A stretch of 64,000 nucleotides of DNA, taken from Candidatus Latescibacterota bacterium (lineage in GTDB: Bacteria; Latescibacterota; UBA2968; UBA8231). The DNA is taken from assembly GCA_965217585.1 (NCBI GenBank), contig OZ244561.1, positions 882,888 through 946,887 on the forward strand. Direction: 5' to 3'. Position 1 is the stretch's first letter. Every line of letters begins with the position of its first letter. Position numbers and translations under genes: made by a program. Below are positions 5,639 to 52,151 of the stretch, one piece after another. A model generated the notes under the pieces. The model was not told where the DNA came from. It was given only the letters and a program-made list of their open reading frames with translations, and did no database searches.

Positions 5639-5682
5639 GGTGCTTGCCCTTGGTCTTGTTGTGTAGCTTGCGTTCGACAAAC

Positions 5683-33016: not shown

Positions 33017-33039
33017 TCTAATTGAATAGGAAGGACCCC

Positions 33040-36935: not shown

Positions 36936-39900
36936 TTACCGCTGAAGTTGTTCCTCCGCCCGCTGCCGAAAAGCGCTCCGCTCCGCTGCTTTGAGCGTAT
37001 TCCAGATCAGCAGCTCTTTGCGGATCGCCTGTAAGAAACTGCGGTTGGCCCGACGCCAGGAATCGTTGTCGCCGCTGAGGCAGCGTAGATAGAACACTAT
37101 ACCGTAAATATCGGCTTGCTCCTCGGGGCAGATGCACAGTACGGCGTGCTGGCTCACGCCCAAATCCAGCGGTGCCAGCCACACCCGGGCTTCAAGGGCG
37201 TAGGCCGTACCTTGGGGCGTGGCAAAGGACTGGAGCAGGGTACCCTCGGTGTAAAACGAGCCAATCGATGCCTCGCCGTAGGACCCTAGGTAATCCAACA
37301 AAAAGCCGCACAGGCCCTTGGCCTCAGCCGCCGACACCAAGAAGGGGAAGCGGAATTCCCACTCGGCACCCACCGGCGGCTCGGGCTGCCAGCGCCGCGT
37401 TAGGTCGGGAACCGCAGTGCGGGCGGCCACCCGGGCCGGGTACACCGTGGACAGCAAAACCACGCCCATGACGATGAGCGCCGAAAACACAGCCGCCAGG
37501 GACGAATAGTTCAAATTGAGTCCGCCCAGCATGTCCAAGTGGTTCAACACCAAGCCCGTCACTTGTCCCCCCAAGTACCCTAGCGTAATGCCCAAGACCG
37601 CATAGGCGCAGGCTTCGGCGATGAACAGCAGGGCGATGTGGGACGGAGCCAATCCTACGGCCGCGTAGATGCCAATGTCCTTGAGGCGTTCGTACACCGT
37701 CCCCAGCATGGTATTGAGGACGATGAGGGCGGCGATGAGCATGGGTATGATCAGCACCCCTAGGCCCTTTATCGCCGTCGCCCCAATCGACGAATACGCC
37801 CAGACGTCGACGGTCGCGGCTCCGTCTTGCCGCAAGCCGACGAACAGGCTGACAGTCACCCGCAGCAGGAAGTCTTCCAGCAACGCTTGGGCCGCCCCGG
37901 TGTCTAGGCGCTCCCGATCAAAGGCGACGGCCACCGAGCGCAGCCGCCCCCCCATTTGGCGGACGATCTCATAGGGCGCAATGAGCACGTTGTCCGGCAG
38001 GATATGCACATAGGGGCGGTACTGGGAGGCGGTGGCTGTCGTGGCCGCGCTTTGGTTGATCTGCAAGGTACTACCAGCGGATTGGGACAACTCAAAGTCC
38101 ACCGGCGTCAGCGGGCCATCGTCTAGGTCTCGGATGCGGTTGAAGGTCTCTGGATCGAGCAAGCCTACCACGGTCAATTTTTTGCCCATTACCTGCACTT
38201 GAGCGCGTCCCAAGTCACTGACACCCAAACCTAGGGCTTCGGCCATCGGCAAGGGCAGCAGACAACTAGCCTCGGTCGCGGCAGTGAAAAAGCGCCCAGC
38301 GGTCAGGGCCTGGTCAACGCCTGTGATGTCGGTTTCCTCGGGGCTTAGGCCGAGCAAGCCGTAGGTCCGTACCAATTGCCGCCCAGCCGCCGCTTCGAGG
38401 TAGGTCTTTTTGTCCTCCTGCAAAATGAACCAGTTGCGCGGGCTGATCGGGCCGACCGCGGAAAAGTGGGAGCGTATATAATCCAGCATGGGCTGGCCCA
38501 AGGGATTCCAGGCCCGGTTGCGCACCAGGATGCCCTCGTACCCACCCTCGTGCTCAAGGGGTAGCGAGATAAAGCGCGCCCGGCTCTCGTACGAGGCAAA
38601 GGAAAGCACCGTAAACGTCAGCAGCACCAGGGTCGTCAAGGTCAGGCCAGTGCGCAGTTTGCGCCGTCGCATATTGGATATGCCCAGCATGAACGCGGCA
38701 TGGGCGACGCTGAAACGCCGCATCTCAACGTGGTGGATCTGGTCGCCGCGCTCCTTCATAAAACTGTTGAAGCGGCTGATGATGAGGACGAGGACGAAAC
38801 CGGCCATGGCCATGATGGCAAAGGCCAGCAGGATGACCAGCGGATGGGCAATGGCAAAGGCGGGATGCACCTGCGAGACCACGAGCCAGACTATAGCTAA
38901 TAACGCACCAAAACCAGCCAGTTGCCGCGTGATCTGCGCCGCCCCCAGCAGCAGGCGCTCGCCCAAAAAAGCCGCGGGAATGAGTAGCGCCAAAAAGAAT
39001 ACCATGCCCTTTATGACGTCGTTTAAGGTCGCCATGGCCTGCGGATAAACCTGATTTTCCAGCCCCAGCGCCACCCGCAGATGGGCCACGTAGCGGCTCC
39101 ATTCTTTTTGCCGGGCGGCCTCTTGGGCGGCTTCGAGGACTTGGGCGGTGCGCTGGTGCAGGCGCTGCAAGTGCTGGTTTTCAATGGCGTGGTCGCGCAT
39201 GGTCTGCAGCCGATCCTCGTCGAGGCGCCACATGTCCCAGGCGGCCTGCAACAGCGTCGGCACCAGCCGCTCCTCGGCTAGGGAAAAGCCCTCGCCGTTG
39301 GGGCGGCTACCGGGGATGCCGTTGTTGAGCAGCAGCAGTTGTCGGCCCGCCAGTATTTTGATGCGGTTTTGCGGCTCGGCGTCCTGCGGCCCGAATACCA
39401 CCCCGGCCGCTTCGTCGAGGCCGCTGCCCAGCGCATAGCCGAATTGGCGCGGGCTGGTGTCGTAGCGGTTGACCACGGAGATGCCACCCAAGAAATTGAG
39501 CGAACGCGGACTAATTAGGCCGTAAAAAGGACGGCTCAAGCAGGGAAAAACCACTACCGATTGCTCGGTGAGTGCCCACTGGACAGTGCTTGAGATGGAG
39601 CCGTCGGCCAGCGGTGCCCCGTGGAACCCTTGCGCCCTTTTACTCAGATCGGCGGCGTAGGTAATGGCACCGCTGTGCGGGTCCAAGACGTAGACGTTGG
39701 TGCGGTATTGGGCCTGCGGCAGCCCCGTTATGAGCAACTCGCCCTCGTCGTCGCTCAGATGGACTTGGGCGGTGCGCACCCCTTTGACGGCTTTGCCAGC
39801 GGTCGCCCGTTGCGAACGCACTACGGCTACCGCGTCGGGCACCGGCCGGTCCGGCGTTTGCGAGCGGCGCGGAAAGGTCCGCGCCTTGAGGAGCAAGTCG

Positions 39901-41348
39901 CGCAAGCGGTCCTGCAGCACCGGTCCAAAGGACGCTTTCTCTTCCAATAATTGCGGATCGTTTAGGGCCTGTTGCAGCACACCGTTTAGCAGGGCGACTT
40001 GGCGCGCCAGATTGTCGTAGTTGACCGCGGCCGGCTGGTCCAGCGGCGAATCAACCTGCAGGCGGGCGTCGTTGACGGTGATCAAGCCCAAGGAGATCAA
40101 GCCGCCTTCGAGAGCGAGCTGGCTGTCGGCGGCAATCCCGCCGGGCATGTACGCCGACCAGCCCAAGCCCTTGATGGGGGTGATACCGTTGACCAAGCTG
40201 CCGACCGCGGCCGAGTCTAGGGTGCTGGCGTAGTCCCTGAAGCGGCGACCGAATGGAGCAAAAAAGCGCCGCAATTCGGGTTTGGCGGTATTGTTCCAAA
40301 TGCCGACTTGATCGGTGCTACTCGACAGATCGAGGCCGATGAACAGATCTATGTGGAGGGGCTCCTTTAGGCGGCGGGCGTGGCGAGCGAGAAAGTCGGC
40401 CATGCCCTGGCGACCCTGAAAATGAGCCGAAGTCGCCACTAGGATGGTGGTGCGCGCCGGCGGATGGGCGGCGAGATGGCGGGCCAATTCCAATAAGGCG
40501 GCGATGCCGCAGGCGGTCTCGGCGCTGGGCGCCCGGCCCGGCACCACGGAAATGCCGTCGTAATACGCCTCGATGGCGACGCGCTCGGCGGCCAGTTCGG
40601 GATCGGTACCGGGGATCATGCCCCAGATATTCCACGCCGGCCGCCGTTGCCAGTCCATGCGGCCCTGCAAGTGTACCAATAGCTCGCCACCCCGCAGGCG
40701 CTGGCGCAAGTCTAGGCCCGCTTCTCGCTCGATCCAGAAGCGGGGGATGTCGAGCGGCACTTGGGCGTATTTGGCGTCGGCTTGGTGGCGGTTGGCCTGC
40801 TCGGGCGCGATAAATACCACGGCCCGAGCGCCCAGCGAAGCAGCGCGCAACCAGTGGTTCCAACTGTCGAATTCCAGCAGGACAATGCGTCCGTCCATGG
40901 CGTGGCCGTCGAAATCGCGCCACTCGCCCCGACCGCCGTAGATCATCGGCGCTTGCAAGCCCTCTGGCGGCAGCGTGACCGTCCGCGCCAGATTCGGCCA
41001 CAGGCCCCACAGCGGCACCTCCTCCCCGCTTGGCTCCAAACGCAGGTGAGCACCGCGCTCTATGGGCACCACCACTGCAAACGAGTCGCGCCGCACCGCT
41101 TTGACACCAGCCGCGACCAGTTCCCGCTCCACCAACGCGGCACCCGCTTCGGCACCAGGATAGCCGGCCAAGCGCGATTCAACGGCGCTTAGCGCTTCGA
41201 TGGTGGCACGCAAAGTAGCCACCTCGCCATAGCAGGGCGTTTGCAGCAGCCCCAACCAGATCGCGAGACATATTTGTAGGGGCGACCGGCCGGTCGCCCT
41301 TACACCGGTAGACGCGCCATTTTTATATGCAGTCGCCACGCTATTCAA
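36936..41348 (-). CDS. M28-peptidase-like + PA domain ectodomain fused to a MacB/FtsX-type permease (about 1450 aa); 5' end uncertain
   Basis: PA/M28-like region: VVFIAPEQANRH...WNIWGMIPGTDPELAAERVAIEAYYDGISVVPGRAPSAETACGIAALLELARHL. FtsX TM1: NMRRRKLRTGLTLTTLVLLTFTVLSF. FtsX domain: YERLKDIGIYAAVGLAPSHIALLFIAEACAYAVLGITLGYLGG. The ORF-track start (TTG 41348) reads through a REP palindrome, so the true start is probably downstream (in-frame TTG/GTG near 41210-41250). Confidence 0.8.
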   Translation of the reverse strand: MNSVATAYKNGASTGVRATGRSPLQICLAIWLGLLQTPCYGEVATLRATIEALSAVESRLAGYPGAEAGAALVERELVAAGVKAVRRDSFAVVVPIERGAHLRLEPSGEEVPLWGLWPNLARTVTLPPEGLQAPMIYGGRGEWRDFDGHAMDGRIVLLEFDSWNHWLRAASLGARAVVFIAPEQANRHQADAKYAQVPLDIPRFWIEREAGLDLRQRLRGGELLVHLQGRMDWQRRPAWNIWGMIPGTDPELAAERVAIEAYYDGISVVPGRAPSAETACGIAALLELARHLAAHPPARTTILVATSAHFQGRQGMADFLARHARRLKEPLHIDLFIGLDLSSSTDQVGIWNNTAKPELRRFFAPFGRRFRDYASTLDSAAVGSLVNGITPIKGLGWSAYMPGGIAADSQLALEGGLISLGLITVNDARLQVDSPLDQPAAVNYDNLARQVALLNGVLQQALNDPQLLEEKASFGPVLQDRLRDLLLKARTFPRRSQTPDRPVPDAVAVVRSQRATAGKAVKGVRTAQVHLSDDEGELLITGLPQAQYRTNVYVLDPHSGAITYAADLSKRAQGFHGAPLADGSISSTVQWALTEQSVVVFPCLSRPFYGLISPRSLNFLGGISVVNRYDTSPRQFGYALGSGLDEAAGVVFGPQDAEPQNRIKILAGRQLLLLNNGIPGSRPNGEGFSLAEERLVPTLLQAAWDMWRLDEDRLQTMRDHAIENQHLQRLHQRTAQVLEAAQEAARQKEWSRYVAHLRVALGLENQVYPQAMATLNDVIKGMVFFLALLIPAAFLGERLLLGAAQITRQLAGFGALLAIVWLVVSQVHPAFAIAHPLVILLAFAIMAMAGFVLVLIISRFNSFMKERGDQIHHVEMRRFSVAHAAFMLGISNMRRRKLRTGLTLTTLVLLTFTVLSFASYESRARFISLPLEHEGGYEGILVRNRAWNPLGQPMLDYIRSHFSAVGPISPRNWFILQEDKKTYLEAAAGRQLVRTYGLLGLSPEETDITGVDQALTAGRFFTAATEASCLLPLPMAEALGLGVSDLGRAQVQVMGKKLTVVGLLDPETFNRIRDLDDGPLTPVDFELSQSAGSTLQINQSAATTATASQYRPYVHILPDNVLIAPYEIVRQMGGRLRSVAVAFDRERLDTGAAQALLEDFLLRVTVSLFVGLRQDGAATVDVWAYSSIGATAIKGLGVLIIPMLIAALIVLNTMLGTVYERLKDIGIYAAVGLAPSHIALLFIAEACAYAVLGITLGYLGGQVTGLVLNHLDMLGGLNLNYSSLAAVFSALIVMGVVLLSTVYPARVAARTAVPDLTRRWQPEPPVGAEWEFRFPFLVSAAEAKGLCGFLLDYLGSYGEASIGSFYTEGTLLQSFATPQGTAYALEARVWLAPLDLGVSQHAVLCICPEEQADIYGIVFYLRCLSGDNDSWRRANRSFLQAIRKELLIWNTLKAAERSAFRQRAEEQLQR
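41276..41303. repeat. REP-like palindrome gtaggggcgaccggccggtcgcccttac, copy 2 (1 mismatch to copy 1)
   Basis: Read directly. It lies between the stop of the 681-aa membrane protein gene (41345) and the likely true start of the M28-FtsX gene. Confidence 0.9.
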
Positions 41349-43390
41349 CCCCAGAAAATCACATTGCCGACCGTGCCGGTAAAATGGTCAATGACGAGGA
41401 AGATGCCGCCCGGCAGCAGTTGTCCCAAGATCAGGCCCATAAAAAACGGCCTAGTCTGATGGTAGCGCTCGGCACCGCCGTACTTGAGCACCAAGACTTT
41501 GATCAACCAAGCCAAGAACATATTGAACCACAGATGGTCCATAATCCAAGTCGGCCCAATGGGATAGCCCAAAGGGTGCAAGGGCCACCAAGCGTAGTGC
41601 CAACGGGCCACAGTCAAACCCAGCATGATGGCTGCGCCCAAGCCCATATTGATCCAGCCCCACAGATGCAACTCGCTCGGGTAGCGCAGTAAGCCCTCGA
41701 CATAGCGGTAGGGGGCTTCGCGGCTGACCGTGCCTCGCAGGTTGAGATTGCCGTGCTCGTAGCTCAGCTCCAAGATCATCCAAGTTGAAGCCGCTAGCGC
41801 CACGGCTATGGCCACGACCATGGCCCAGAACAAAGGCCGACGCCCCCGGCCCAGTTCCCCGCCCAGTTTCAGGCTGTTGGCACAGGAGGCCATGACAAAG
41901 CTGCGGACATTGGCCGTCCAGATATAGGTGCTGGCCAGCAAGACCAAGCCCGGCGCTCCCAGCGCCGACGAGCCTACCGCGGAGATGATGATGCCAGCCG
42001 GCACCACGGGCGGAGCGCCGTCGGATAGACCGCCTTCAGCCACTATCCGGGTAAAAGCGACAAAAAGGGCACCGGCCAGAAACAGCAACGCCACGCCAGC
42101 CCACAGCGGCAATCCGGCCAGCCACAGCCAGCCGAGCATGATCGCCACACCGACGGCGAGGATAGCCACCGCCGCCCGGTACGACAGTATTTCCTCGCCG
42201 TCATCAACGGCCGGGTCGCCGGACCAGGCCTTGCGCCAGACCGCGGCCAGATGGCGGCGAGCAGCCCACAAGCCGCCGAGGAAGAGGACCACCATCGCAC
42301 CCATAGCGTGATAGACCTGAAGCGTGTGCGGGATGTCGTGCCCACCACCCAAGCTGGGCGTATTGCCCAAGCCGAGGATGGCGAAAGCGCCGCGCAAGAC
42401 ATTGGCCAACAGGTTGAAAACCCACAGGCTGAGCGCGACTTCGGTCTTGAGAAAATAGAAAAAACCGAAGATGTGGAAGCGGAAGGCGATGTACAGCGTA
42501 GTAGTGCCGCGCATGATCGGCAATTCTTGGTGGAGCAGATCGACGCTGCGGGCGAAATGCACTCCTTCCGGGAAATAGGCGTACAGGCCGTGCAGCGTGC
42601 TCCAAGTGGCGGCGAGGGCAAAGCCGATCCACATCCCCCGATTTTTGAAAAAAGGCGGCCAGCGCTCTGTGCCCTCTCCCATTGCGGTCATGGCCAGAGG
42701 CACTTGCACTAGCGGATAGACGAGGCGTTCGTTGTCGATCCACTGCCGCCGCAGCACGACCATGATGGCGATCATCACCAAGAAGAGGGACCAGATAAAG
42801 GGCTGCCAAGCCGCCAGTGCCAGCAGCCAAGCTTTCCACGGCACAATGTAGGAGGAACCCATCCCCTCAAAGAAAAACTGGGCGTCGCCGAGCTGGCGCG
42901 GCATCATCCAGTGGGGAATGTGGGGATGGATGAGGCCCTGCCAATCGTTTTCGGGCGTGGCAAAGTAAAAGGGGGAGGCGAGCTGGCTGATGATCCGCGA
43001 GGTAAAAATGATGGGGATGGGCGAGGCCATCACCATCATGATATAGACCAGCAGCAATTCGCCCCGGCGCAACCCCTGCGTCCCACCCAGCTTGAGCAGG
43101 GGATTGATCAGCCCCGTCAGCAGAGACAGCAGACAAACCGCCCCGACCGTGCTGAAGCCCAAAGCCATGAAGGAGCCTTGCAGGTACAGGGTGCTATAGG
43201 CCACGCCGCCGCCGATGAAGGCAGCCAAGAAAGTGCCTAGGGCAAAGGCCCGGAGCGTAAAGGCCGAGCCGGCCTCTTCTACGGTAGGCTCCGGGTCGGG
43301 CGACTTTAGGTCCAGCCGCGAGCGAAAGGCGGCGGGCAGCAGACGGCCGACTCTGCCCGACTCAGGTGTGCTAGCGCCGGTCGCCGGCAT
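41345..43390 (-). CDS. Large polytopic membrane protein, uncharacterised family (paralogue A, 681 aa)
   Basis: More than 12 predicted hydrophobic helices. It shares the blocks YFATPENDW, RRQWIDNERLVYPLVQVPLAM, RIVAEGGL, WWPLHPLGY and VLVLKYGGAERYHQTRPFFMGLILGQ with the 647-aa protein at 48828-50771. Confidence 0.8.
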   Translation of the reverse strand: MPATGASTPESGRVGRLLPAAFRSRLDLKSPDPEPTVEEAGSAFTLRAFALGTFLAAFIGGGVAYSTLYLQGSFMALGFSTVGAVCLLSLLTGLINPLLKLGGTQGLRRGELLLVYIMMVMASPIPIIFTSRIISQLASPFYFATPENDWQGLIHPHIPHWMMPRQLGDAQFFFEGMGSSYIVPWKAWLLALAAWQPFIWSLFLVMIAIMVVLRRQWIDNERLVYPLVQVPLAMTAMGEGTERWPPFFKNRGMWIGFALAATWSTLHGLYAYFPEGVHFARSVDLLHQELPIMRGTTTLYIAFRFHIFGFFYFLKTEVALSLWVFNLLANVLRGAFAILGLGNTPSLGGGHDIPHTLQVYHAMGAMVVLFLGGLWAARRHLAAVWRKAWSGDPAVDDGEEILSYRAAVAILAVGVAIMLGWLWLAGLPLWAGVALLFLAGALFVAFTRIVAEGGLSDGAPPVVPAGIIISAVGSSALGAPGLVLLASTYIWTANVRSFVMASCANSLKLGGELGRGRRPLFWAMVVAIAVALAASTWMILELSYEHGNLNLRGTVSREAPYRYVEGLLRYPSELHLWGWINMGLGAAIMLGLTVARWHYAWWPLHPLGYPIGPTWIMDHLWFNMFLAWLIKVLVLKYGGAERYHQTRPFFMGLILGQLLPGGIFLVIDHFTGTVGNVIFWG

Positions 43391-43498
43391 TAAGGCCCGT
43401 CTCTATGGGAAGACCGGACGGAGCCACGGTTTTAGTTTTGGAAGATAGGGCGAACTGTTCCGCGAGCAGGTCGGTCATGAGCTATCCATTTCGCCGCC

Positions 43499-44386: not shown

Positions 44387-44453
44387 ATTTCCTCTGCTGT
44401 CGCGCTGTGCCCGCCTCGCGTCTCATTGCTCGCGCTTGGGGCGCACCGGGAAT

Positions 44454-47400
44454 TTAAAACGGCTTCTCAAATCCCAGGATGATATTTATAAACGTGGCCA
44501 AGAACCGCTCTCCGGCGAACACCTCTGTGTTCCTGTGATCGAATTCTTTGACGCGGTGGCGGAGGCCCACGTTGGTCGAGATGAGATAGCCGAAATACTT
44601 GGAGTCGTTGGTCATCATAAACACAGTATCGCGCTGTTTGAAACCGCGTCTGGCATCGACCAAGTCGGTCGCGCTATAGGGCAGTACAGCGCCAAATCCC
44701 TGCATCCCGAACTGGAAGCGGCTTCTCTTGGTCAGGCGGTACTCCAGTTTGATGAGGGGAATCACATGGCGCTCGTGTCTGGCGGCTAGGCTCTGGCTTT
44801 GCCGCCACTCCTTGAGGTAGCGGAATTTAAAACCGGAAAACAGGCTGAGCTTGGGGGCGAGCTGCCAGTTGTAGTCGATCTTGTGGACCATGGTCAGCCG
44901 CCGGCGGCGGTCGCTCTGCTGCTTTCTGCCGTCCCACAGGGCCCCTCCGCGCTGGAAATTGACCTCGACTTTGACCTTGTTGTGTATGTTGAGGTCGGGT
45001 ACGGTCTGCCAGCGAGCGTCGGTGAACAAGCGCAGCAGCGTGCTGTTCTGATAGTTGAGCGGATCCTCGCGCCGCTGCTCGTTAAAGGGGGCGATTTCGA
45101 CCGAAACCGCGCGGAACAACTCATGTCGCTGGGCCTCGGTGAGCACAGCTTCGCTGTACACGCTCAGCGGATCTTCCACCCCGTCCTCCACCTTTTCCAG
45201 CGAGGCTTCGGAGAAGAAGCGACCCAGGCTCGGCACTTGCCGCTCGTACCTGAGACGGGTGTAGCGCACCTTGCTGGGCGAGGAGCCGGCGATTTGCTCG
45301 GCTTGTAAGGCCCCCAGAGTCCAGGTCAGATCCGGCACCAGTCTGTACTGCCCGTACAGGTGCAGCCCTCGCAAATCGGGGTCGTAGGGATAGTCGGCCT
45401 CCCAGTCGTTCTCGCGCGTGTCAATGAAGTCGTTGTGGTTGAGATCTACACCGTAGTCGTAGTCCTGCGGGTCCGCGTCGTACATGAGGAAGGGTTCCAC
45501 ATGATCCGGCGTGCCATTGTAGTTCCGGTTGTGGTCGGGCACGCCATCGCGGTCCTCGTCCGTGCCCGGGAAGATGCCATCGACATCCGCTTGTCCCTGG
45601 TTGGGCGAATATATCCTGTTGTACCAGCTATCGGGAAAGCGGTCGTCGTCGTCGTTGTCTTCGACCAAGCGGTGGATCATGGTATTGTTGTAGGCGATTG
45701 GATTGCCGAAAAAGTCGGTCTCATCGCGCCCGACATAGGTGCGTAGTTCCGTGCTGTACAGGGGCCCCATGGAAAAGTACTCCACCCCGAAGCCCCAGCG
45801 GCGGGCGCGGCGCTCCACGGCCATATAATAGGCGCGGTCGCCAATGGTGCTCCGCTTTCCCGGCAGTTGCTCCCGGTTGGTCGCGTTTATGCCGAGGGCG
45901 TCCAGGGGTACGCGCGGGGCGGGCGGACCGCTGGCGTACTGGGAGAAGCTGCTGCTGTGGGCGAATTCGGCGCGGATCTGGAAGCCTTTGAGAACCCCGT
46001 GGACATGGGCGCTGTACAGGTTCAAGCCCGTGGGCGTGCCCGCCTCGATTTGGAGCCGCTTCAAGGCGCCGGCCTGGGGGTTGCCTTTGGCGCGGGCAAC
46101 CGGGCGGAAAAAGGTGGCGTAGCGATAGCGCCCCTTGTAGTTGACCCCCGGTGGATTGAGGTCGGTGCCGGCCTGGTCGATTTCCGCCACTTCAATGTGG
46201 TAGTCGTTGGCCAAGGTCAGGTCGACGCGCACCGAGCGAATCGGCTCTCCAAAGGGCTCTAGGTCAATGTACAGGATGCCGTATTCCCGTCCATCAAAGG
46301 CCTGCGGCAAATCCCTCCGGGTGTGCAGGCCGAGGAATTGACCATCGGGATTGAGGGCGGATCGCTCGGCCTGCTGGTGGGCGAATTCGCCGTGCACAGT
46401 AATCGGGTCCTCGGTCTCCTGATCGGCGTTGATCACATGGTCGGGACCAAAGAGTTTGAAGTCGCGGTAGTAGAGGTGGTCGATCCAGAAGGGGAATTCG
46501 TATCCCCGATAGTAGAGATCCGGGTCAAAGCCGGCATAGCCGATGTAGGGGTCATACGAACTGAAGACCGACCCCCGGTTGACCGACTGGTAGTCGTTGG
46601 GCACGGGGGGAAGGGGTTTGCGCTCGCCGCTGCGGAGCAGATCTTGGACATAGGGTTGGCGTTGCTCTCCCCGCTTGAAGAGGCGGACGATGAAGGGCTC
46701 CAGTTCCGGCCGCTCCCGGCCATTGACGTAGATATCGACTTGGTGGATCACTGGCCCTCCCCTCCCGTCTAGGGGCGAATCGTCCGATATGCGAATGGCG
46801 ATCAAGGCCGGCGCATTCTGCATGGCGCCCGGCACGCCCTTGAGTGACCGGCTCCCCTCGCCCATCAGCGGTTCGTACTGATGGGCGTTGATGAAAGTGC
46901 CGCCAAAGTGGAGAAAGCCCACCTGGCGCTGGTAGTGCAGGCCCAGCAGCATGGCCTTGGCTTTGAGCTGGTGATTGGCTTCGACAGTGCCCAGACTGAG
47001 GGGGCCGTGGATGCGCGAGAACACGGCGGAGAAGGCGTCCCGTCTGGTGCCCAGATCCAGGCGCAGGCCGTTGAAATTGGCCCGCTTCAGGGTCAGCGGC
47101 GTGAACTTGGTGCGGATTTCGTCGCCGTAGATGATGCGAGACTGCCAGGCATCGGTGCCGTCCGTACCCACGATCACATAGTTGAAAAGTTGCCGGTAGC
47201 TGGCGTAGAGATTGCGCTCGACGTTTTGGACGCTGATAAAATCGGTGAAATCCTCGGGGGCTTCACCGTGGAATCTGACCTCGTCTAGGCTGGTAAACCC
47301 GCGCTCGATGCCGCGGCCCCGGCGCTCGATCCAACTGATGGCCTCGGAGCCGTAGAGCAGGCGATCTCCCAGCACACTGTAGAACGGCCGCAATGTGGTG

Positions 47401-47630
47401 GTGAAGGGCGGCTGCCGGGAATATGCCATTGAGCCGTAGTTTTGGTAGCGCATTTCCCCAAAACGCCCCACAAAGGGCTGGACCGGGAGCAGGCGCTGTG
47501 GACCCAAACGGGGCTGCTCCGGCACATCCCGATCCTCTTGTCCGAAAAGGCTTGCCGGCACCAAGCACAGGATCGCGAGTCCAGAGCGGGCCAAAGACGC
47601 GATTGAGCGGCAATGCTGGTAGCGGCGCAC
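44454..47630 (-). CDS. Very large outer-membrane beta-barrel-type protein with a thrombospondin-type-3-like Ca-binding motif; start uncertain
   Basis: It ends in ...NIILGFEKPF (C-terminal Phe, an OMP signature) and has alternating aromatic/polar strands throughout. DEDRDGVPDHNRN matches DxDxDGxxD. A GTG at 47630 would give MRRYQHCRSIASLARSGLAILCLVPASLFG/QED, a good signal peptide. The ORF track starts at 47705. Confidence 0.7.
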   Translation of the reverse strand: MRRYQHCRSIASLARSGLAILCLVPASLFGQEDRDVPEQPRLGPQRLLPVQPFVGRFGEMRYQNYGSMAYSRQPPFTTTLRPFYSVLGDRLLYGSEAISWIERRGRGIERGFTSLDEVRFHGEAPEDFTDFISVQNVERNLYASYRQLFNYVIVGTDGTDAWQSRIIYGDEIRTKFTPLTLKRANFNGLRLDLGTRRDAFSAVFSRIHGPLSLGTVEANHQLKAKAMLLGLHYQRQVGFLHFGGTFINAHQYEPLMGEGSRSLKGVPGAMQNAPALIAIRISDDSPLDGRGGPVIHQVDIYVNGRERPELEPFIVRLFKRGEQRQPYVQDLLRSGERKPLPPVPNDYQSVNRGSVFSSYDPYIGYAGFDPDLYYRGYEFPFWIDHLYYRDFKLFGPDHVINADQETEDPITVHGEFAHQQAERSALNPDGQFLGLHTRRDLPQAFDGREYGILYIDLEPFGEPIRSVRVDLTLANDYHIEVAEIDQAGTDLNPPGVNYKGRYRYATFFRPVARAKGNPQAGALKRLQIEAGTPTGLNLYSAHVHGVLKGFQIRAEFAHSSSFSQYASGPPAPRVPLDALGINATNREQLPGKRSTIGDRAYYMAVERRARRWGFGVEYFSMGPLYSTELRTYVGRDETDFFGNPIAYNNTMIHRLVEDNDDDDRFPDSWYNRIYSPNQGQADVDGIFPGTDEDRDGVPDHNRNYNGTPDHVEPFLMYDADPQDYDYGVDLNHNDFIDTRENDWEADYPYDPDLRGLHLYGQYRLVPDLTWTLGALQAEQIAGSSPSKVRYTRLRYERQVPSLGRFFSEASLEKVEDGVEDPLSVYSEAVLTEAQRHELFRAVSVEIAPFNEQRREDPLNYQNSTLLRLFTDARWQTVPDLNIHNKVKVEVNFQRGGALWDGRKQQSDRRRRLTMVHKIDYNWQLAPKLSLFSGFKFRYLKEWRQSQSLAARHERHVIPLIKLEYRLTKRSRFQFGMQGFGAVLPYSATDLVDARRGFKQRDTVFMMTNDSKYFGYLISTNVGLRHRVKEFDHRNTEVFAGERFLATFINIILGFEKPF

Positions 47631-47794
47631 CTGGGTGTGGAAGCACGAGGTGAGGCGGACGCGGAAGACCAGTGGTATACCGGAAAGCGTTTGCGGTTTG
47701 CACACGGGATTTACCGGGGTTTTGGCGACGGCGTTTCACAATTTGTCCCTCAACATAGTGATTTAGCCGCAATGGACCAAAGAAAACAAAGCGG

Positions 47795-48799
47795 TCAGAT
47801 CGGTCCTTTGTGGCCGCGGCCAATGGCCTCGCCTAGGCGCATGGTGTGGACGGCGTCTTCGAGGGTGGACCAGGGGGTCTGAGCCCCGAGGATGCAGTCG
47901 GCAAAGTGCCGGGTCTCGTCGAAATGGGGACCGCCGGTGGGCTCGAGATCCAGTTCGCCTCGATAGGGCGCTCCGCGGGTGCCTTGGCCGCGGCCCTGAT
48001 CGACGGCCTGGTACAGTTCGCACTCGGGCGCTCCGTTGAGGTCGAGGTAGGCGGAGAAATCCTCGGCGTGCACCTCGGCGCGGCGGATGCGAAAACCCAC
48101 GCCGCTGTGGTGCATCATGGTGGCGATGGCGCCGCTAGCGAAGTGGATGACGGCGTTGTGGCGGCCGGCCCCGTCGCGCTCGCCTTGTTTGATCAGTGAG
48201 TAGACTGCCGTAGCTCTAGCCGCTTCAGTGGGGGTGCGGCCGGCCAGCCAGCGCAGCAGGTCGACGTGATGGATGGCGTCGCAGATAATCGAAGGGGGCG
48301 TGAGATGGGCCCAAGCTCTGGAGCCGATCAGATCGAGGTGCTTGTTGTATGTGGCGGCGCAGTGCACCGGCCCGCCTCTCTGCTGCACTAGGCGGCGGAC
48401 GGCCAGGACTTGGGGGAAGTAGCGGCGGTTGAAGGAGACCATGTTCTCGCCTTTGCTGCGGCGGGCAACCGCGGCCAATTTCTCGGTATCGGATGCACTC
48501 ATGCCCGGGGGTTTTTCCAAGGAAGTGTGCAGGTCGCGCTGGAGGCAGTCAATGGCAATGGGGGTAAGGTGGCCGGGCATGGTGCAGATGTGGACCAGAT
48601 CCAGAGCGCAGGTATCGAGCATCCGGCGGTAGTCGGCAAAGGCGCGTTCGGGCTTCCATTGGCGGCGATTCTGCTCCAGCCGTTTGCCGTCGACTTCGCT
48701 GATGGCCACTAGGTGCAGTCGGGGTTCGGCGGCGATCATGCGGAAGTGCTCTTGGGCGTGGCCACCGCAGCCGATGACGGCGACTTTCAAATCTGCCAT
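47795..48799 (-). CDS. Gfo/Idh/MocA-family oxidoreductase (B)
   Basis: MADLKVAVIGCGGHAQEHFRMIAAEPRLHLVAISEVD is the canonical GxGxxG Rossmann N-terminus. The ATG at 48799 is preceded by GGAGGAAAGACC. The ORF-track N-extension to 48916 is rejected. Confidence 0.85.
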   Translation of the reverse strand: MADLKVAVIGCGGHAQEHFRMIAAEPRLHLVAISEVDGKRLEQNRRQWKPERAFADYRRMLDTCALDLVHICTMPGHLTPIAIDCLQRDLHTSLEKPPGMSASDTEKLAAVARRSKGENMVSFNRRYFPQVLAVRRLVQQRGGPVHCAATYNKHLDLIGSRAWAHLTPPSIICDAIHHVDLLRWLAGRTPTEAARATAVYSLIKQGERDGAGRHNAVIHFASGAIATMMHHSGVGFRIRRAEVHAEDFSAYLDLNGAPECELYQAVDQGRGQGTRGAPYRGELDLEPTGGPHFDETRHFADCILGAQTPWSTLEDAVHTMRLGEAIGRGHKGPI

Positions 48800-48827
48800 G
48801 GTCTTTCCTCCGTTAATTCGCAGAACA

Positions 48828-50771
48828 TCAATAGACCGGAATGCGATTGCCCACCATGCCGGTAAAACCGTCGATGAGCAGCCACAGGCCGCCCACGACG
48901 AATTGCCCCAGCACAATCCCGAGGAAAAACGGTCTGGTCTTTTGGTACAGGGCCGGGCCGCCGTACTTCAGCACCAGCACCTTTATCATCCAGGCCAAGA
49001 AGACGGAAAACCAGATATTGACCATGGCCCAGCCCATACTGACGGCAAACCCGAGGGGGTGAAAGGGCCACCAGATAAATTTGTGGCGGGCGATCATCAG
49101 GCCCGCCATGATCAGACCGCCCACTGCGGTCCACAGCCAGCCGCTCAGGCTCGGTCCGGTGGGGTTGGCCAGTTTTTGGGCGGCGAAACTCGAGGGATAC
49201 GTGGCAAAGGTGCCAAAGTACTGGCGGTGAAGATTCAGCGCTCCGTCGCGGTAGGCTAGGTAGAGCAGGAACCAAGTGGAGACCACCAAGCTGATCAACA
49301 TGGCCGCGACAATGGCTCCGAGCAGGGCCCGCTGGCCTCTGGTCGTCTCGCTGCCGAGGCGCAGGCCATTGGCCAGCGGCGCGGCCATGAAGACCAGCAG
49401 GTCGCCGGCCCAGGCCAGGGTGTACCCGGTGGCGATCATGCCCTTGGCACCCAAGGCGGGGACGCCGACTCCAGAAACGACAAAACCAGCCGGAACCATC
49501 TCCGGGGTTACAGTGGCCAACCCGGCCTCGGCAATGACGCGCGCCAAGCCGATGAAGATGACCAGAGCGGCAAAGAGGAAAAAGGGCGTGATCCAGCCGG
49601 GAATGCCCGATTTCCACAGCCAGGATCCCATGATGGCCACGCCGAGGCAAAAACCGCAGACCGCCGTCCTGTAGGACATGATTTCGCGGGTATCGTCTAT
49701 TGGGGCATTCTTGTCCAGGGCTTTGTGCAGGACCGCCTTGAGATGGGGGCGTGCGGTCCACAGACCAAAGAGAACGAGGATGATTAAGGCGCCCATCATT
49801 TGATGGCCCACAATTGCGCCTATGGGTCCGGAGCCGGTCCAGGGGCCCAGTTCTTCCGGACTGTGAATCCCCAGAATTGAGAAGGTGCCCCTCTCAATCA
49901 GGTGGAGTAGGTAGAAGAACCAGAGGCTAAAGGAAATACTGGTATTGATGAAGTAGGCAAAGCCGAACATCAGGAGGTTGAGCCTGAGATTCAGGGTGAC
50001 ACTGTTGCGAAAGAGCGCTAGGCTGGCCTGGGCTTCGATCGGCGAGATAAAGTAGAAGTAGTGGTGCAGGGCATTGACGCTGTTGATCGCGAAGGGGATG
50101 GCAAAACCGCACCACATGATGCTGCTTTTGAAAAAGGGCTTGACGAGCTGTTCTTTGGCGTCGTCTTGGAGCATGGCCATGGGCACCTGGACAAGCGGGT
50201 AGACCAGACGCTCGTGTTCGCTCCACTGGCGCCGCAGAATGACTGTGGCGCAAATGAGGATCAGGTAGAGCGAGGCGTAGAAGGCCAGCCAGCGGAGCAG
50301 GGGACCCGCCCAGATGTTCCAGGGAATGCGCAGCGGACCGCTGGTGCCCTCGTAGAAACCCTTGATGGCGGATGCGTCGTACACCACCAGCCAGTCCGAG
50401 AGGATGGGATGGATCAATTCGGCCCACTCGTTCTCGGGGGTAGCGTAGTAGAAGGTGCCGGTGATCATGGGCAACAACATGCCGACCACGCCGCGAGTGG
50501 GAATGGCGGTTGCCACCATCATCATGATGAAGACGGTAATGAGTTCGCCCCGCTGAAAGGCCCAGTTGCGCTTGAGCAGACCCAGCGGGATATGAATGGT
50601 AGCCAGCAGGACGAAGAGCAGGAAGAAGGCCGCGGGCGTGCAGGAACTGAGTCCGAGTCGGGTGCCCTGAATCACCATGCTGCCGTAGGGAATGCCGATG
50701 GCGATGACTACGCACATCAGGCATCCCACGAGAAAACCGCGCAAGGTGATGGCCGTCTGCTGGGCAGGCAT
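48828..50771 (-). CDS. Large polytopic membrane protein, uncharacterised family (paralogue B, 647 aa)
   Basis: YYATPENEW, RRQWSEHERLVYPLVQVPMAM, RVIAEAGL, WWPFHPLGF, VLVLKYGGPALYQKTRPFFLGIVLGQ. Collinear with paralogue A. Confidence 0.8.
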   Translation of the reverse strand: MPAQQTAITLRGFLVGCLMCVVIAIGIPYGSMVIQGTRLGLSSCTPAAFFLLFVLLATIHIPLGLLKRNWAFQRGELITVFIMMMVATAIPTRGVVGMLLPMITGTFYYATPENEWAELIHPILSDWLVVYDASAIKGFYEGTSGPLRIPWNIWAGPLLRWLAFYASLYLILICATVILRRQWSEHERLVYPLVQVPMAMLQDDAKEQLVKPFFKSSIMWCGFAIPFAINSVNALHHYFYFISPIEAQASLALFRNSVTLNLRLNLLMFGFAYFINTSISFSLWFFYLLHLIERGTFSILGIHSPEELGPWTGSGPIGAIVGHQMMGALIILVLFGLWTARPHLKAVLHKALDKNAPIDDTREIMSYRTAVCGFCLGVAIMGSWLWKSGIPGWITPFFLFAALVIFIGLARVIAEAGLATVTPEMVPAGFVVSGVGVPALGAKGMIATGYTLAWAGDLLVFMAAPLANGLRLGSETTRGQRALLGAIVAAMLISLVVSTWFLLYLAYRDGALNLHRQYFGTFATYPSSFAAQKLANPTGPSLSGWLWTAVGGLIMAGLMIARHKFIWWPFHPLGFAVSMGWAMVNIWFSVFLAWMIKVLVLKYGGPALYQKTRPFFLGIVLGQFVVGGLWLLIDGFTGMVGNRIPVY

Positions 50772-50838
50772 CTTCAGCTCCCTTCAACGCGGATAATTGG
50801 CCAAGTTCGAAATTGGACCAACCTTGTAGCAGATTGCT

Positions 50839-51537
50839 TCACTCCAACCGCTCTGCGAGCAGGCGGGGCAGTTCGCCTAGGTGGGCTATTTGGTGGTATT
50901 GCTGGCGCTCGGCCTCGGAGGGCTCGACGCTTTCGTGGGTCCAAGTAGTGTGATAAGGCACATAGACGGCGCATCCGCCCAAGGCGACGACGGGCAGGAC
51001 ATCCGACTTGAGCGAATTGCCCACCATGCAGAAATCGGCGGCACGGACGCCGTGGCGCTGCAGCAGGGCCGCGTAGGTTTGCTCGTTTTTGTCGCTGACG
51101 ATTTCGATATAGGTGAAGTGATCGGCCAAGTCGGAGCGGGCGATCTTGACCTCTTGGTCGAACAAATCGCCCTTGGTCAGCAGCATCAGGGGACGAGTTC
51201 GGGCCAAGCGGGTGAGCACTTCCTCGACGTGGGGCAGCGGTTCGATGGGCATTTGCAGCAGCTCTTTGCCATAGTCCAAAATCTGGCGGATTTGCTGCCC
51301 GGTTACCGCGCCCTGCGTCAGATCGAGGGCCGTCTCGATCATGGACAAGGTGAAACCTTTGATGCCGTAGCCAAAGTGAGCTAGGTTGCGCATTTCAGTC
51401 TCGTACAGCTCCCGCTCGGTCCACGCCGGATCGCAGTCGGGGGCCAACAGATGCTTAAAGCGGTCTTTGGCCGTTTCAAAGTAGATCTCGTTTTCCCACA
51501 GGGTATCGTCGGCGTCAAAGGCAATCAGGGCGGGCAT
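50839..51537 (-). CDS. HAD-superfamily hydrolase
   Basis: MPALIAFDADDTLW (DxDxT motif I), LLTKGD (motif II/III context), MVGNSLKSDV (motif IV). Confidence 0.8.
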   Translation of the reverse strand: MPALIAFDADDTLWENEIYFETAKDRFKHLLAPDCDPAWTERELYETEMRNLAHFGYGIKGFTLSMIETALDLTQGAVTGQQIRQILDYGKELLQMPIEPLPHVEEVLTRLARTRPLMLLTKGDLFDQEVKIARSDLADHFTYIEIVSDKNEQTYAALLQRHGVRAADFCMVGNSLKSDVLPVVALGGCAVYVPYHTTWTHESVEPSEAERQQYHQIAHLGELPRLLAERLE

Positions 51538-52012: not shown

Positions 52013-52151
52013 TAGATTATCCTCCGTAGTGTCGTTTTCAAATAATACGTTATAGATTATGAATACCTTTGAGCCGCGCAAGGTCGGCTCCGGCTGGCCC
52101 CGGAAGTGGATCGCCCTCTCCGCGCCCACCCTCTTCACAATGAGCTAGCTT

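What the first reader, a model, noticed from the sequence alone, without database searches (positions are those of the whole stretch)
36936..51537. 14.6-kb minus-strand operon with duplicated [polytopic membrane protein + Gfo/Idh/MocA oxidoreductase] modules around a giant OMP and an M28-FtsX fusion: candidate uncharacterised envelope-spanning system
The gene order in the direction of transcription is:
1. HAD hydrolase
2. membrane protein B (647 aa)
3. GFO oxidoreductase B
4. outer-membrane protein of about 1060 aa
5. GFO-like protein A
6. membrane protein A (681 aa)
7. M28/PA-FtsX fusion

Intergenic gaps are short: 28-108 nt, plus one overlap. The set therefore has inner-membrane, periplasm-facing and outer-membrane components, together with two cytoplasmic NAD(P)-type oxidoreductases. 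No recognisable ATPase, TolC/MFP, TonB or regulator is present.

I cannot match this combination to a described transport, secretion or cell-envelope system. The module duplication suggests a heteromeric or two-substrate machine.
Basis: partly seen in the sequence, partly recalled or inferred. Interest (0 to 1): 0.7.

Follow-up and report, generated by a model that had tools for sequence, protein, structure and literature searches.

The report
Composite transporter locus, conserved OPT-like/FtsX pair
The seven genes are real, but they are two unrelated units placed side by side rather than one envelope-spanning machine; the interesting part is a widely conserved, sometimes fused, unstudied pairing of an oligopeptide-transporter-like membrane protein with an ATPase-less FtsX/MacB-type protein that carries a degenerate peptidase domain.

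Summary

The set is not a conserved unit.
- In a relative whose M28-FtsX protein is 89% identical, HAD is followed directly by memA and M28-FtsX. The four genes memB, GFO B, OMP and GFO-like A are absent there.
- An 81% orthologue of memB sits in an unrelated neighbourhood.
- The OMP's closest homologues outside the window's own lineage (52-63%) lie in a different conserved cluster.

The conserved core is memA + M28/PA-FtsX.
- 28 of 30 testable homologue loci at 39% identity or more carry an adjacent DUF6785 gene.
- About 21 of the top 120 homologue clusters are single fused proteins of roughly 2,100 aa.

An AlphaFold model of memB matches only barley Yellow Stripe 1 (OPT superfamily, a proton-coupled elevator transporter). 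The FtsX part resembles MacB, LolC and YtrF, but no ATPase gene lies nearby. The M28 zinc ligands and catalytic Glu are replaced by other residues that are invariant or nearly invariant in the family.

The inserted block looks like a nutrient-uptake cassette: an OPT-fold importer, two dehydrogenases and an outer-membrane barrel of roughly 30 strands. The same combination recurs elsewhere in Latescibacterota.

No paper mentions DUF6785/6784, and two keyword searches found none describing the pairing. Function is inferred, not shown.

The parts
41345..43390 (-). memA: DUF6785+DUF6784 polytopic membrane protein (681 aa). It belongs to a subfamily that always sits next to an M28-FtsX gene. It is inferred to be an OPT/YSL-fold secondary transporter.
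   Evidence: Pfam E 2.9e-113 and 4.5e-31. 89% and 78% orthologues lie directly upstream of M28-FtsX in L087 and L088. It falls in a pure FtsX-adjacent clade in the NJ tree. The fold is inferred from the memB model and 41% identity to memB.
36936..41348 (-). M28/PA-FtsX fusion protein (1470 aa). Predicted layout: signal-like N-terminus; periplasmic M28/PA-like ectodomain plus an unknown domain (aa ~55-775); 3 TM helices; cytoplasmic linker; a MacB-type module (TM, periplasmic domain aa 919-1192, then 3 TM helices forming the FtsX domain); and a conserved cytoplasmic C-terminal domain (aa 1303-1470).
   Evidence: Pfam FtsX 39.8 bits and M28 24.9 bits. PDB sequence hits to YtrF, MacB, LolC and BceB. 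Hydropathy topology. Family alignment A2. 1,012 representative clusters at E<=1e-30.
39024..41186 (-). Ectodomain of the fusion protein: an M28 peptidase-like domain with an inserted PA domain, followed by about 300 aa of unknown fold. Three canonical metal-ligand positions and the catalytic Glu are replaced: Y262, E277, H309-F310.
   Evidence: Pfam M28 26.1 bits on this part. The distant homologue L123 aligns to aminopeptidase 2ek8 (E 8e-13) and to Nicalin. Invariant and near-invariant columns of A2. No PDB hit for the window ectodomain alone.
48828..50771 (-). memB: DUF6785+DUF6784 protein (647 aa) of the 'free' subfamily. It has the OPT/YSL fold and is the probable inner-membrane importer of the inserted cassette.
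   Evidence: Pfam E 1.2e-123 and 2e-33. AlphaFold pLDDT 81.6, pTM 0.83. The only significant Foldseek hits are barley YS1 structures 7wsr and 7wst, TM 0.64/0.68. Its homologues sit among catabolic enzymes.
47795..48802 (-). GFO B: Gfo/Idh/MocA NAD(P)-dependent dehydrogenase (about 335 aa from the ATG at 48802). It is cytoplasmic.
   Evidence: Pfam GFO_IDH_MocA 59.9 bits plus C-terminal domains. Sub-threshold NCBIfam resemblance to inositol 2-dehydrogenase, levoglucosan dehydrogenase and glycoside 3-dehydrogenases. No TM segment or signal peptide.
44454..47705 (-). Giant outer-membrane beta-barrel (1083-aa ORF, roughly 30 strands, with an Asp-rich loop at aa 683-773). It is a lineage-specific paralogue of an OMP that elsewhere lies in a TPR/ExbBD cluster.
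   Evidence: No Pfam or NCBIfam hit. AlphaFold model. Strong Foldseek matches (E <= 0.001) are all OM barrels (SlpA, MtrB, OmpG, SprA, LptD) at low TM-scores. Homologues and their loci.
43499..44386 (-). GFO-like A: a divergent Gfo/Idh/MocA-like protein (295 aa). It has 'DKS' in place of the family's EKP motif (the motif is recalled from memory).
   Evidence: Pfam 21.2 bits, below the cut-off of 24. PDB 3c1a at E 4.5e-7. Not similar to GFO B. No tblastn hit in any of the 82 DUF6785 loci.
50839..51537 (-). HAD-superfamily hydrolase. It is probably a nucleotidase linked to the neighbouring pyrimidine/nucleoside genes rather than to the transporters.
   Evidence: Pfam Hydrolase. Weak NCBIfam hits to YjjG-type pyrimidine nucleotidases. 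In L088, cytidine deaminase and UPRTase lie between HAD and memA. A nucleoside transporter is syntenic nearby.
43490..50777 (-). Lineage-specific four-gene block (memB, GFO B, OMP, GFO-like A) lying between HAD and memA.
   Evidence: Absent from L087 and L088, which keep HAD-memA-M28FtsX and the flanking TBDR gene. Present in L172, where it is 94.5% identical in nucleotide sequence against 90-92% for the flanks.

Best explanation
The 14.6-kb run of genes is a composite of two units, in a Latescibacterota genome.

Unit 1: memA + M28/PA-FtsX.
- This is an evolutionarily conserved two-protein inner-membrane module.
- memA is inferred to be a distant, OPT/Yellow-Stripe-fold transporter (by analogy, an elevator-type, probably proton-coupled one).
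- Its partner is a MacB/FtsX-type membrane protein that lacks a cognate ATPase gene nearby. It displays a large periplasmic M28/PA-like domain whose zinc site has been remodelled.
- I infer that the pair works as one complex for uptake of a periplasmic solute, most plausibly peptides or peptide-like compounds.
- In that reading the non-canonical M28/PA ectodomain captures or presents the substrate and the OPT-fold partner carries it across the membrane.

Unit 2: memB, GFO B, OMP, GFO-like A.
- This is a lineage-specific block lying between HAD and memA.
- It reads as a self-contained nutrient-uptake cassette: an outer-membrane barrel for entry, a 'free' OPT-fold paralogue for import, and two cytoplasmic Gfo/Idh/MocA-type oxidoreductases for the first catabolic step on a sugar-like or cyclitol-like substrate.

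HAD belongs with the neighbouring nucleoside-salvage genes.

Shown: gene content, folds, the loss of canonical M28 ligands, the conservation and fusion of the pair, and the absence of the four-gene block from the next relatives. Inferred: direction of transport, substrates, physical contact between the pair, and energy coupling.
For: Composite nature:
- L087 (M28FtsX 89%, memA 89%, HAD 89%, TBDR 86%) has HAD-memA-M28FtsX with no memB, GFO, OMP or GFO-like gene.
- L088 (80%) has the same pattern, with cytidine deaminase and UPRTase in between.
- memB's 81% orthologue lies with cupin, AP_endonuc_2 and PhyH genes.
- OMP homologues at 55-57% identity lie in a conserved cluster: FlgD_ig, F5/8-C, two OMP paralogues, the OMP, TPR, DUF4159 and ExbB, with ExbD as well in two of the three loci.

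Conserved pair:
- DUF6785 lies directly upstream of M28FtsX in L087-L090.
- 28 of 30 testable loci at 39% identity or more have DUF6785 adjacent.
- About 21 of the top 120 homologue clusters are fused proteins of about 1,800-2,140 aa.
- The fusions were verified as a single 2086-aa ORF in a complete chromosome and by full-length alignment of P0283.
- FtsX-adjacent DUF6785 proteins form three clades with no 'free' members.

Fold:
- The memB model (pLDDT 81.6) matches only HvYS1, at probability 1.0 and TM 0.64/0.68.
- YS1 is a homodimeric proton-coupled elevator symporter (PMC9691689).

FtsX part: sequence matches to YtrF, MacB, LolC and BceB.

No ABC_tran gene appears in any Pfam-annotated M28-FtsX neighbourhood.

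Peptide theme:
- An M16 peptidase pair lies upstream of distant M28FtsX homologues.
- An M42 aminopeptidase is next to the pair in L089 and L090.
- OPT is the oligopeptide-transporter superfamily.

Cassette reading:
- OMP-family gene, then GFO or PhyH enzymes, then DUF6785, recurs in L025, L026 and L062.
- 'Free' DUF6785 genes sit among GFO, AP_endonuc_2, PhyH, MR_MLE, sulfatase and PALP genes.
Against: - No experiment or transcript data exist for any of these genes.
- The OPT assignment rests on a predicted fold only. There is no sequence-level link: Pfam OPT does not match at E 10, and the family profile finds nothing in the PDB.
- An ATPase partner encoded elsewhere cannot be excluded.
- The M28 site is remodelled but strictly conserved, so it could still bind metal and be catalytic in a non-canonical way.
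- The peptide theme comes mainly from distant homologues, which lack DUF6785 altogether.
- The most universal partner of M28-FtsX is a different polytopic protein, 'poly665', which the window lacks. The window's version may therefore not be representative.
- The seven genes are kept together in the closest relative and have no intergenic terminators. Functional cooperation between the two units in this lineage is not excluded.
- The OMP-DUF6785 association was seen in 15 of 82 loci, with no background frequency to compare against.
Confidence: 0.6

Rival explanations
1. One reading: all seven genes encode one envelope-spanning system. It would have inner-membrane, periplasmic and outer-membrane parts, and two duplicated [membrane protein + oxidoreductase] modules acting as a heteromeric or two-substrate machine.
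For: - The genes are co-directional with short gaps and no intergenic terminators.
- The order is identical in the close relative L172.
- YS1-type transporters are dimers, so a memA/memB heterodimer is conceivable.
Against: - The block memB, GFO B, OMP, GFO-like A is absent from the next relatives.
- memB and the OMP have orthologues in unrelated contexts.
- GFO A and GFO B are not paralogues.
- memA and memB belong to different old clades.
- No periplasm-spanning adaptor is present.
Confidence: 0.08
2. memA + M28-FtsX is a true type VII ABC (MacB/FtsEX-like) mechanotransmission system. Its ATPase is encoded elsewhere. It would use ATP to drive the periplasmic M28/PA domain, for example to control cell-wall or envelope hydrolysis or to extract or export a substrate. 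The OPT-fold protein would be an accessory channel.
For: - The FtsX domain and the periplasmic domain between TM1 and TM2 resemble MacB, LolC and YtrF.
- FtsEX-type systems regulate periplasmic hydrolases (PMC7668044 and PMC10214136, listed).
- The conserved cytoplasmic linker and C-terminal domain could dock an ATPase.
Against: - No ABC ATPase gene lies within 10 kb in any Pfam-annotated neighbourhood or in the window.
- The conserved partners are polytopic membrane proteins instead.
- Natural fusions join the FtsX C-terminus directly to the OPT-fold protein.
Confidence: 0.17
3. The M28/PA-FtsX protein is an active, membrane-anchored exopeptidase with a non-canonical metal site. It trims periplasmic peptides and feeds the products directly to the OPT-fold importer.
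For: - The M28 fold with its PA insertion is similar to bacterial aminopeptidases.
- The substituted positions (E277, H309, D340 and others) are invariant and chemically able to bind metal.
- The genomic context includes M16 and M42 peptidases.
Against: - The catalytic Glu-Glu pair is replaced by His-Phe, and the first His ligand by Tyr or Phe.
- The closest pattern is that of Nicalin, which to my knowledge is a catalytically inactive M28 relative.
Confidence: 0.12

Closest known systems
OPT / Yellow Stripe-like transporters (TC 2.A.67; HvYS1 structures 7wsr and 7wst)
   Same: The predicted fold of memB matches HvYS1 along almost its whole length (TM 0.64/0.68, probability 1.0). The size is similar (about 650 aa, about 16 helices). 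By analogy it would be a dimeric, proton-coupled elevator transporter for peptides or metal-chelates.
   Different: There is no detectable sequence similarity. The family has its own Pfam entries (DUF6785/DUF6784). It is hugely expanded in Latescibacterota, Gemmatimonadota, Poribacteria and Handelsmanbacteria, with several copies per genome. One set of subfamilies is genetically tied or fused to an FtsX-type protein.
Type VII ABC transporters / mechanotransmitters (MacB, LolCDE, FtsEX, YtrEF, BceAB)
   Same: The C-terminal FtsX domain matches, and a periplasmic domain lies between the first TM and the 3-TM bundle. Homologues match MacB_PCD.
   Different: No ATPase is fused or adjacent. There are three extra TM helices and a 720-aa N-terminal M28/PA ectodomain. 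There is a conserved cytoplasmic C-terminal domain of about 170 aa with no known relative. The constant partners are polytopic membrane proteins (DUF6785 and/or 'poly665').
M28 aminopeptidases with a PA domain (e.g. 2ek8, YwaD 6hc6) and the M28 relative Nicalin
   Same: Sequence similarity covers the M28 core and the PA insertion in a distant family member (E 8e-13). The Pfam M28 match is above the cut-off.
   Different: The first His ligand is Tyr or Phe, the bridging Asp is Glu, and the Glu-Glu pair is His-Phe. The domain is tethered to a multi-pass membrane protein.
Polysaccharide-utilisation-locus logic (outer-membrane channel + inner-membrane importer + catabolic enzymes)
   Same: The inserted block, and L025, L026 and L062, co-localise an OM barrel, an inner-membrane transporter and cytoplasmic oxidoreductases.
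   Different: The OMP has no SusC/TonB-dependent plug or barrel signature. There is no SusD-like lipoprotein and no glycoside hydrolase in the block. The importer is OPT-fold rather than MFS or ABC.

Membership tests
Pfam DUF6785 / DUF6784 | Match to both profile HMMs above the gathering score | tested here: met
   memA scores 379.5 and 107.4 bits; memB scores 413.7 and 115 bits. Cut-offs are 25 and 26.4.
OPT superfamily (TC 2.A.67) | Sequence match to the OPT family profile or to a solved OPT/YSL protein | tested here: not met
   No Pfam OPT hit even at E 10. phmmer and the family profile find nothing in the PDB.
OPT superfamily (TC 2.A.67) | Shared three-dimensional fold with a solved member | tested here: met
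   Foldseek of the memB model gives only HvYS1 (7wsr, 7wst) at E 1e-7, probability 1.0, TM 0.64/0.68. The next hits have TM 0.17 or lower.
OPT superfamily (TC 2.A.67) | Proton-coupled uptake of peptides or metal-chelates | not testable with these tools
   Needs transport assays.
Type VII ABC transporter (MacB/FtsX type) | FtsX 3-TM domain preceded by a TM helix and a periplasmic domain | tested here: met
   Pfam FtsX 39.8 bits. PDB hits to YtrF, MacB and LolC. Hydropathy topology. MacB_PCD match in homologue L123.
Type VII ABC transporter (MacB/FtsX type) | Cognate nucleotide-binding domain, fused or encoded alongside | tested here: not met
   No ABC_tran domain in the protein. None in the Pfam-annotated genes of the window, nor within 10 kb in L086-L090 and L172. 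A distant ATPase gene cannot be excluded.
M28 metallopeptidase | Profile match to Peptidase_M28 | tested here: met
   24.9 and 26.1 bits against a cut-off of 21.3; the match covers profile positions 1-104 of 193.
M28 metallopeptidase | Co-catalytic zinc ligands (His, Asp, Glu, Asp/Glu, His) and the catalytic Glu | tested here: not met
   Alignment to 2ek8 through L123 and family alignment A2. HxD becomes Y-Y-D, the bridging D becomes E277, and E-E becomes H309-F310. E277, H309 and F310 are invariant; Y262/Y263 are at least 90% conserved.
Gfo/Idh/MocA oxidoreductase | Rossmann N-domain plus C-terminal alpha/beta domain above the Pfam cut-off | tested here: met
   GFO B: 59.9 and 27.1 bits.
Gfo/Idh/MocA oxidoreductase | The same, for GFO-like A | tested here: inconclusive
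   21.2 bits against a cut-off of 24. It does match the GFO-family structure 3c1a at E 4.5e-7 over 116 residues.
TonB-dependent receptor / SusC | Plug domain and a 22-strand TBDR barrel profile in the 1083-aa OMP | tested here: not met
   No Pfam hit at E 10. The model has about 30 strands, and TBDR structures are only weak Foldseek matches.
Single conserved operon/system of seven genes | Co-localisation of homologues of all members in other genomes | tested here: not met
   Found only in L172, at 90-94% nucleotide identity. Absent in L087, L088 and L091, and in the 82 DUF6785 loci and 80 M28FtsX loci examined.

The most novel reading that the evidence does not exclude
The M28/PA-FtsX protein and its polytopic partner (DUF6785/6784, or 'poly665') form a previously unknown class of inner-membrane machine. 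In it, a MacB/FtsX-type mechanotransmission scaffold has dispensed with its ABC ATPase. It is instead coupled, sometimes covalently, to an elevator-type, proton-motive-force-driven OPT-fold transporter. Transporter cycling and movements of the periplasmic pseudo-peptidase domain would then be linked, for substrate capture and hand-over or for signalling across the membrane.
Probability: 0.2. Interest if true: 0.85.

Novelty: new variant of a known kind. Interest (0 to 1): 0.58.

Why it matters
DUF6785/6784 is a large family that no paper in the library mentions. At least 584 loci were found in one-genome-per-species collections, with several copies per genome in Latescibacterota, Gemmatimonadota, Poribacteria and Handelsmanbacteria. 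Recognising it as an OPT/Yellow-Stripe-fold transporter family gives a working annotation for what may be a main route of organic-substrate uptake in these mostly uncultured phyla.

The conserved coupling, and frequent fusion, of one branch of this family to an ATPase-less FtsX/MacB-type protein is a combination that two keyword searches of the paper library did not turn up. That protein family has about 1,000 representative clusters at 50% identity. If the two proteins really work together without ATP, that would broaden the accepted rule that FtsX/MacB-fold proteins are ATP-driven mechanotransmitters.

Tried and rejected
1. A sequence-level link between DUF6785 and OPT. Tried phmmer and a family profile against the PDB, and Pfam at E 10. 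Nothing was found; only the predicted fold links them.

2. Identity of the third partner, 'poly665', as a divergent DUF6785. hhalign gave E 0.002-0.025 at probability 2-13%, over the N-terminal ~170-185 aligned columns including the ERLxxPL motif. This is inconclusive and is not claimed.

3. Identification of the C-terminal cytoplasmic domain and the middle ectodomain of M28-FtsX. phmmer against the PDB and Pfam found no hits. The window ectodomain alone finds no M28 structure. Only the distant homologue L123 does.

4. Monophyly of all FtsX-associated DUF6785 proteins. In the NJ tree they form three separate pure clades, not one. Deep branches of that tree are not reliable.

5. Promoter and terminator scan, to split the block into transcription units. 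Hits are at chance level and none falls in a gap.

6. A local tandem duplication of a [membrane protein + GFO] module. Rejected, because GFO A and B are unrelated at E 0.04 and memA and memB are only 41% identical and sit in different clades.

7. The OMP as a TonB-dependent receptor, or as a specific partner of DUF6785. Its nearest relatives outside its own lineage lie in a different cluster. The association with DUF6785 is recurrent but holds in a minority of loci.

8. Literature searches for DUF6785/6784, and for FtsX combined with M28 or OPT. They returned nothing relevant.

Full report
**1. What is in the sequence**

Seven co-directional minus-strand ORFs occupy 36936-51537.

Pfam and NCBIfam results:
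- The 232-aa protein is a HAD hydrolase.
- Both polytopic proteins are DUF6785+DUF6784.
- The 373-aa ORF is a Gfo/Idh/MocA dehydrogenase. Its start is most likely the ATG at 48802.
- The 1470-aa protein combines a weak but above-threshold Peptidase_M28 match with a C-terminal FtsX domain.

The 295-aa 'GFO-like A' is below Pfam's cut-off (21.2 bits against 24). It matches the GFO-family structure 3c1a at E 4.5e-7. It is not detectably similar to GFO B.

The 1083-aa protein has no family match at all.

Gaps between the genes are 25-108 nt, plus a TTGA start/stop overlap between memA and M28-FtsX. No terminator-like site lies in a gap.

**2. Source organism**

The closest relatives are 'Candidatus Latescibacterota' assemblies.
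- The 91% M28-FtsX homologue P0204 lies on a contig of 5,359,245 bp. That is the length of OZ241362.1.
- L172 is 90-94% identical to the window in nucleotide sequence over 36930-57007.

**3. The seven genes are not one conserved unit**

- In L087, the M28-FtsX, memA, HAD and neighbouring TonB-dependent-receptor-like proteins are 86-89% identical to the window's. There the order is TBDR(-) | HAD, memA, M28-FtsX. The four genes memB, GFO B, OMP and GFO-like A are absent.
- L088 (80%) carries cytidine deaminase and UPRTase between HAD and memA. With the syntenic nucleoside transporter (window 58309-59544), this places HAD in a pyrimidine-salvage context.
- memB's 81% orthologue sits among cupin, AP_endonuc_2 and PhyH genes. 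Homologues at 70% and 54% sit among other catabolic genes.
- The OMP has a 93% orthologue in L172 and one 77% homologue on a short contig. Its other full-length homologues are 52-63% identical.
- The three of these whose neighbourhoods were read (55-57%) lie in a strongly conserved, different cluster: a FlgD_ig/Por_Secre_tail protein, an F5/8-type-C protein, two further OMP paralogues, the OMP, a 1,080-aa TPR protein, DUF4159 and ExbB. DUF5683 and ExbD are also present in two of the three loci.
- Only the very close relative L172 shows the window's full arrangement. There the four-gene block is more similar to the window (94.5% nucleotide identity) than the flanks are (90-92%).

I conclude that 43490-50777 is a lineage-specific block lying between HAD and memA.

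**4. The conserved core is memA + M28/PA-FtsX**

- A DUF6785/6784 gene lies directly upstream of the M28-FtsX homologue in L087, L088, L089 and L090. These range from 89% to 48% identity and include Gemmatimonadota. The same holds in a Handelsmanbacteria locus.
- I scanned metagenome contigs with the M28-FtsX alignment and scored the hits by tblastn. At 39% identity or more, 28 of 30 loci with both sides readable have an adjacent DUF6785 gene.
- About 21 of the 120 best homologue clusters are single proteins of about 1,800-2,140 aa that carry FtsX together with DUF6785, and in most cases DUF6784.
- One fusion is a single 2,086-aa ORF in a complete chromosome (L080). P0283 aligns over the full length of memA after residue 1425.
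- In an NJ tree of 137 DUF6785 proteins, the FtsX-adjacent ones fall into three clades that contain no 'free' member. memA is in one of them. memB sits among the free proteins.
- Gene fusion plus conserved adjacency across phyla is strong evidence for a functional, probably physical, partnership.

**5. A third partner that the window lacks**

- A polytopic protein of 650-1,070 aa with no Pfam match ('poly665') lies directly downstream of M28-FtsX in 59 of 66 testable loci.
- This includes the distant group (<39% identity). That group has no DUF6785 gene, and 8 of its 22 testable loci carry a pair of M16 peptidases upstream.
- The memA clade, including the window, and the fused clade lack poly665.
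- Whether poly665 is a very divergent DUF6785 relative is unresolved.

**6. What the parts are**

DUF6785/6784 proteins:
- The memB AlphaFold model (pLDDT 81.6, pTM 0.83) matches only barley Yellow Stripe 1 in the PDB (TM 0.64/0.68). Everything else has TM 0.17 or lower.
- YS1 is an OPT-superfamily, homodimeric, proton-coupled elevator symporter (PMC9691689).
- No sequence-level link was found. The family is best called a distant OPT-fold family.

M28/PA-FtsX:
- Hydropathy and alignment give this layout: a signal-like N-terminus; a periplasmic ectodomain (aa ~55-775); three TM helices; a cytoplasmic linker; a MacB-type TM1, periplasmic domain and 3-TM FtsX module; and a conserved cytoplasmic tail of about 170 aa.
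- The FtsX part matches YtrF, MacB, LolC and BceB.
- No ATPase gene was seen in any Pfam-annotated neighbourhood.
- The ectodomain is M28 with a PA insertion. Similarity to aminopeptidase 2ek8, E 8e-13, is seen through the distant homologue L123.
- The first His ligand is Tyr or Phe, the bridging Asp is Glu277, and the Glu-Glu pair is His309-Phe310. E277, H309 and F310 are invariant in the family and Y262/Y263 nearly so.
- The pattern resembles Nicalin, which to my knowledge is a catalytically inactive M28 relative.
- The ectodomain family is large: 1,012 representative clusters at E<=1e-30.

OMP:
- The model (pLDDT 72) has roughly 30 long strands.
- Its strong Foldseek matches (E <= 0.001) are all outer-membrane barrels (SlpA, MtrB, OmpG, SprA, LptD), at low TM-scores.
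- It is a generic giant barrel, not a TonB-dependent receptor.

**7. Most likely mechanism**

Unit 1 (memA + M28/PA-FtsX) is inferred to be a single inner-membrane complex.
- The OPT-fold protein would move a periplasmic solute inward, using the proton gradient.
- The M28/PA ectodomain, held by an ATPase-less MacB-type scaffold, would bind or present the substrate.
- Peptides are the best guess, for three reasons: the OPT superfamily transports oligopeptides; the ectodomain descends from an M28 peptidase; and M16 and M42 peptidases occur in related loci.

Unit 2 (memB, GFO B, OMP, GFO-like A) reads as an uptake-and-oxidation cassette.
- OMP-family gene, then GFO or PhyH enzymes, then DUF6785 recurs in L025, L026 and L062.
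- GFO plus xylose-isomerase-like TIM-barrel neighbours of 'free' DUF6785 genes recall 3-keto-sugar pathways. That link is my own knowledge and was not tested.

Everything about substrates, direction and energy coupling is inference.

**8. Comparison with known systems, and novelty**

- The pieces belong to known kinds: OPT fold, FtsX/MacB fold, M28/PA fold, Gfo/Idh/MocA and OM barrel.
- Three defining features fail: sequence membership in OPT, a cognate ABC ATPase, and the M28 zinc site.
- No paper mentions DUF6785/6784. Two keyword searches found none on this pairing.
- I rate it a new variant of known kinds. There is a minority chance (about 0.2) that the pair is a genuinely new type of machine in which a MacB-type scaffold is coupled to a secondary transporter instead of an ATPase.

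**9. Verdict**

The result worth following up is the conserved and often fused pairing of an OPT-fold protein with M28/PA-FtsX. Interest 0.58.

Noticed in passing
window 554-11446: An anti-phage defence island. HmaC (554-3892, with an N-terminal Swt1-like HEPN domain) and the HmaB methylase (6403-9342) belong to the Hma system. A PD-T4-4/AriA-like AAA ATPase lies at 9782-11446. No HmaA helicase was looked for; it may lie beyond the window start.
   Followed up: partly
L083, L084, L085 (about 1-22000 in each): A strongly conserved cluster of 10 or more genes in Latescibacterota and Gemmatimonadota holds the window OMP's closest homologues outside its own lineage. It contains a FlgD_ig/Por_Secre_tail protein, an F5/8-type-C protein, three paralogous giant barrels with no Pfam match (about 890, 930 and 1,035 aa), a 1,080-aa TPR protein, DUF4159 and ExbB. 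DUF5683 and two ExbD genes are also present in L084 and L085. It looks like an uncharacterised outer-membrane machine in its own right.
   Followed up: partly
L123 10444-12441; L089 14477-17119; most of L094-L171: 'poly665' is a polytopic membrane protein family with no Pfam match (650-1,070 aa). It lies directly downstream of M28-FtsX homologues in 59 of 66 testable loci and is often followed by a conserved ~300-aa ORF. The window has no homologue. A shared ERLxxPL motif hints at a remote relation to DUF6785.
   Followed up: partly
window 43490-50777 against L172: The four-gene block is 94.5% identical in nucleotide sequence to L172, while the flanking syntenic segments are 90-92% identical. 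This could reflect recent transfer or recombination of the block between these lineages, or stronger constraint.
   Followed up: no
window 35673-36852; L172 20956-23237: In L172, M28-FtsX is followed by a 1,063-aa sigma-54 activator with a Reg_prop/Y_Y_Y sensor domain. In the window, synteny stops at 36930 and only a 188-aa Reg_prop ORF (36286-36852) is present. The window therefore lacks that regulator at this position.
   Followed up: partly
window 39024-41186 (M28-like ectodomain): The motif YDxxSVVPxxAPxAExxxG and the loss of the zinc ligands resemble eukaryotic Nicalin, a membrane-complex subunit. This may be a convergent reuse of the M28 fold as a non-enzymatic ectodomain.
   Followed up: no
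window 51611-52138 (-): A small retropepsin-like aspartyl protease ORF (175 aa; sub- or near-threshold Pfam Asp_protease_2 and gag-asp_proteas hits) lies between HAD and the TonB-dependent-receptor-like gene. It is also present in L172 but not in L087.
   Followed up: no
window 33022-34983 (+); L026 8458-9939: A PhyH dioxygenase-HEAT repeat fusion protein recurs next to DUF6785 genes in other Latescibacterota loci. So do plain PhyH, AP_endonuc_2/UxuA-like and GFO genes. This suggests a shared but unidentified catabolic theme around the 'free' DUF6785 transporters.
   Followed up: partly
window 13330-15885 (-): An 851-aa protein combines an MFS-like N-terminal membrane region (below the Pfam cut-off) with a C-terminal spermine/spermidine synthase domain.
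   Followed up: no
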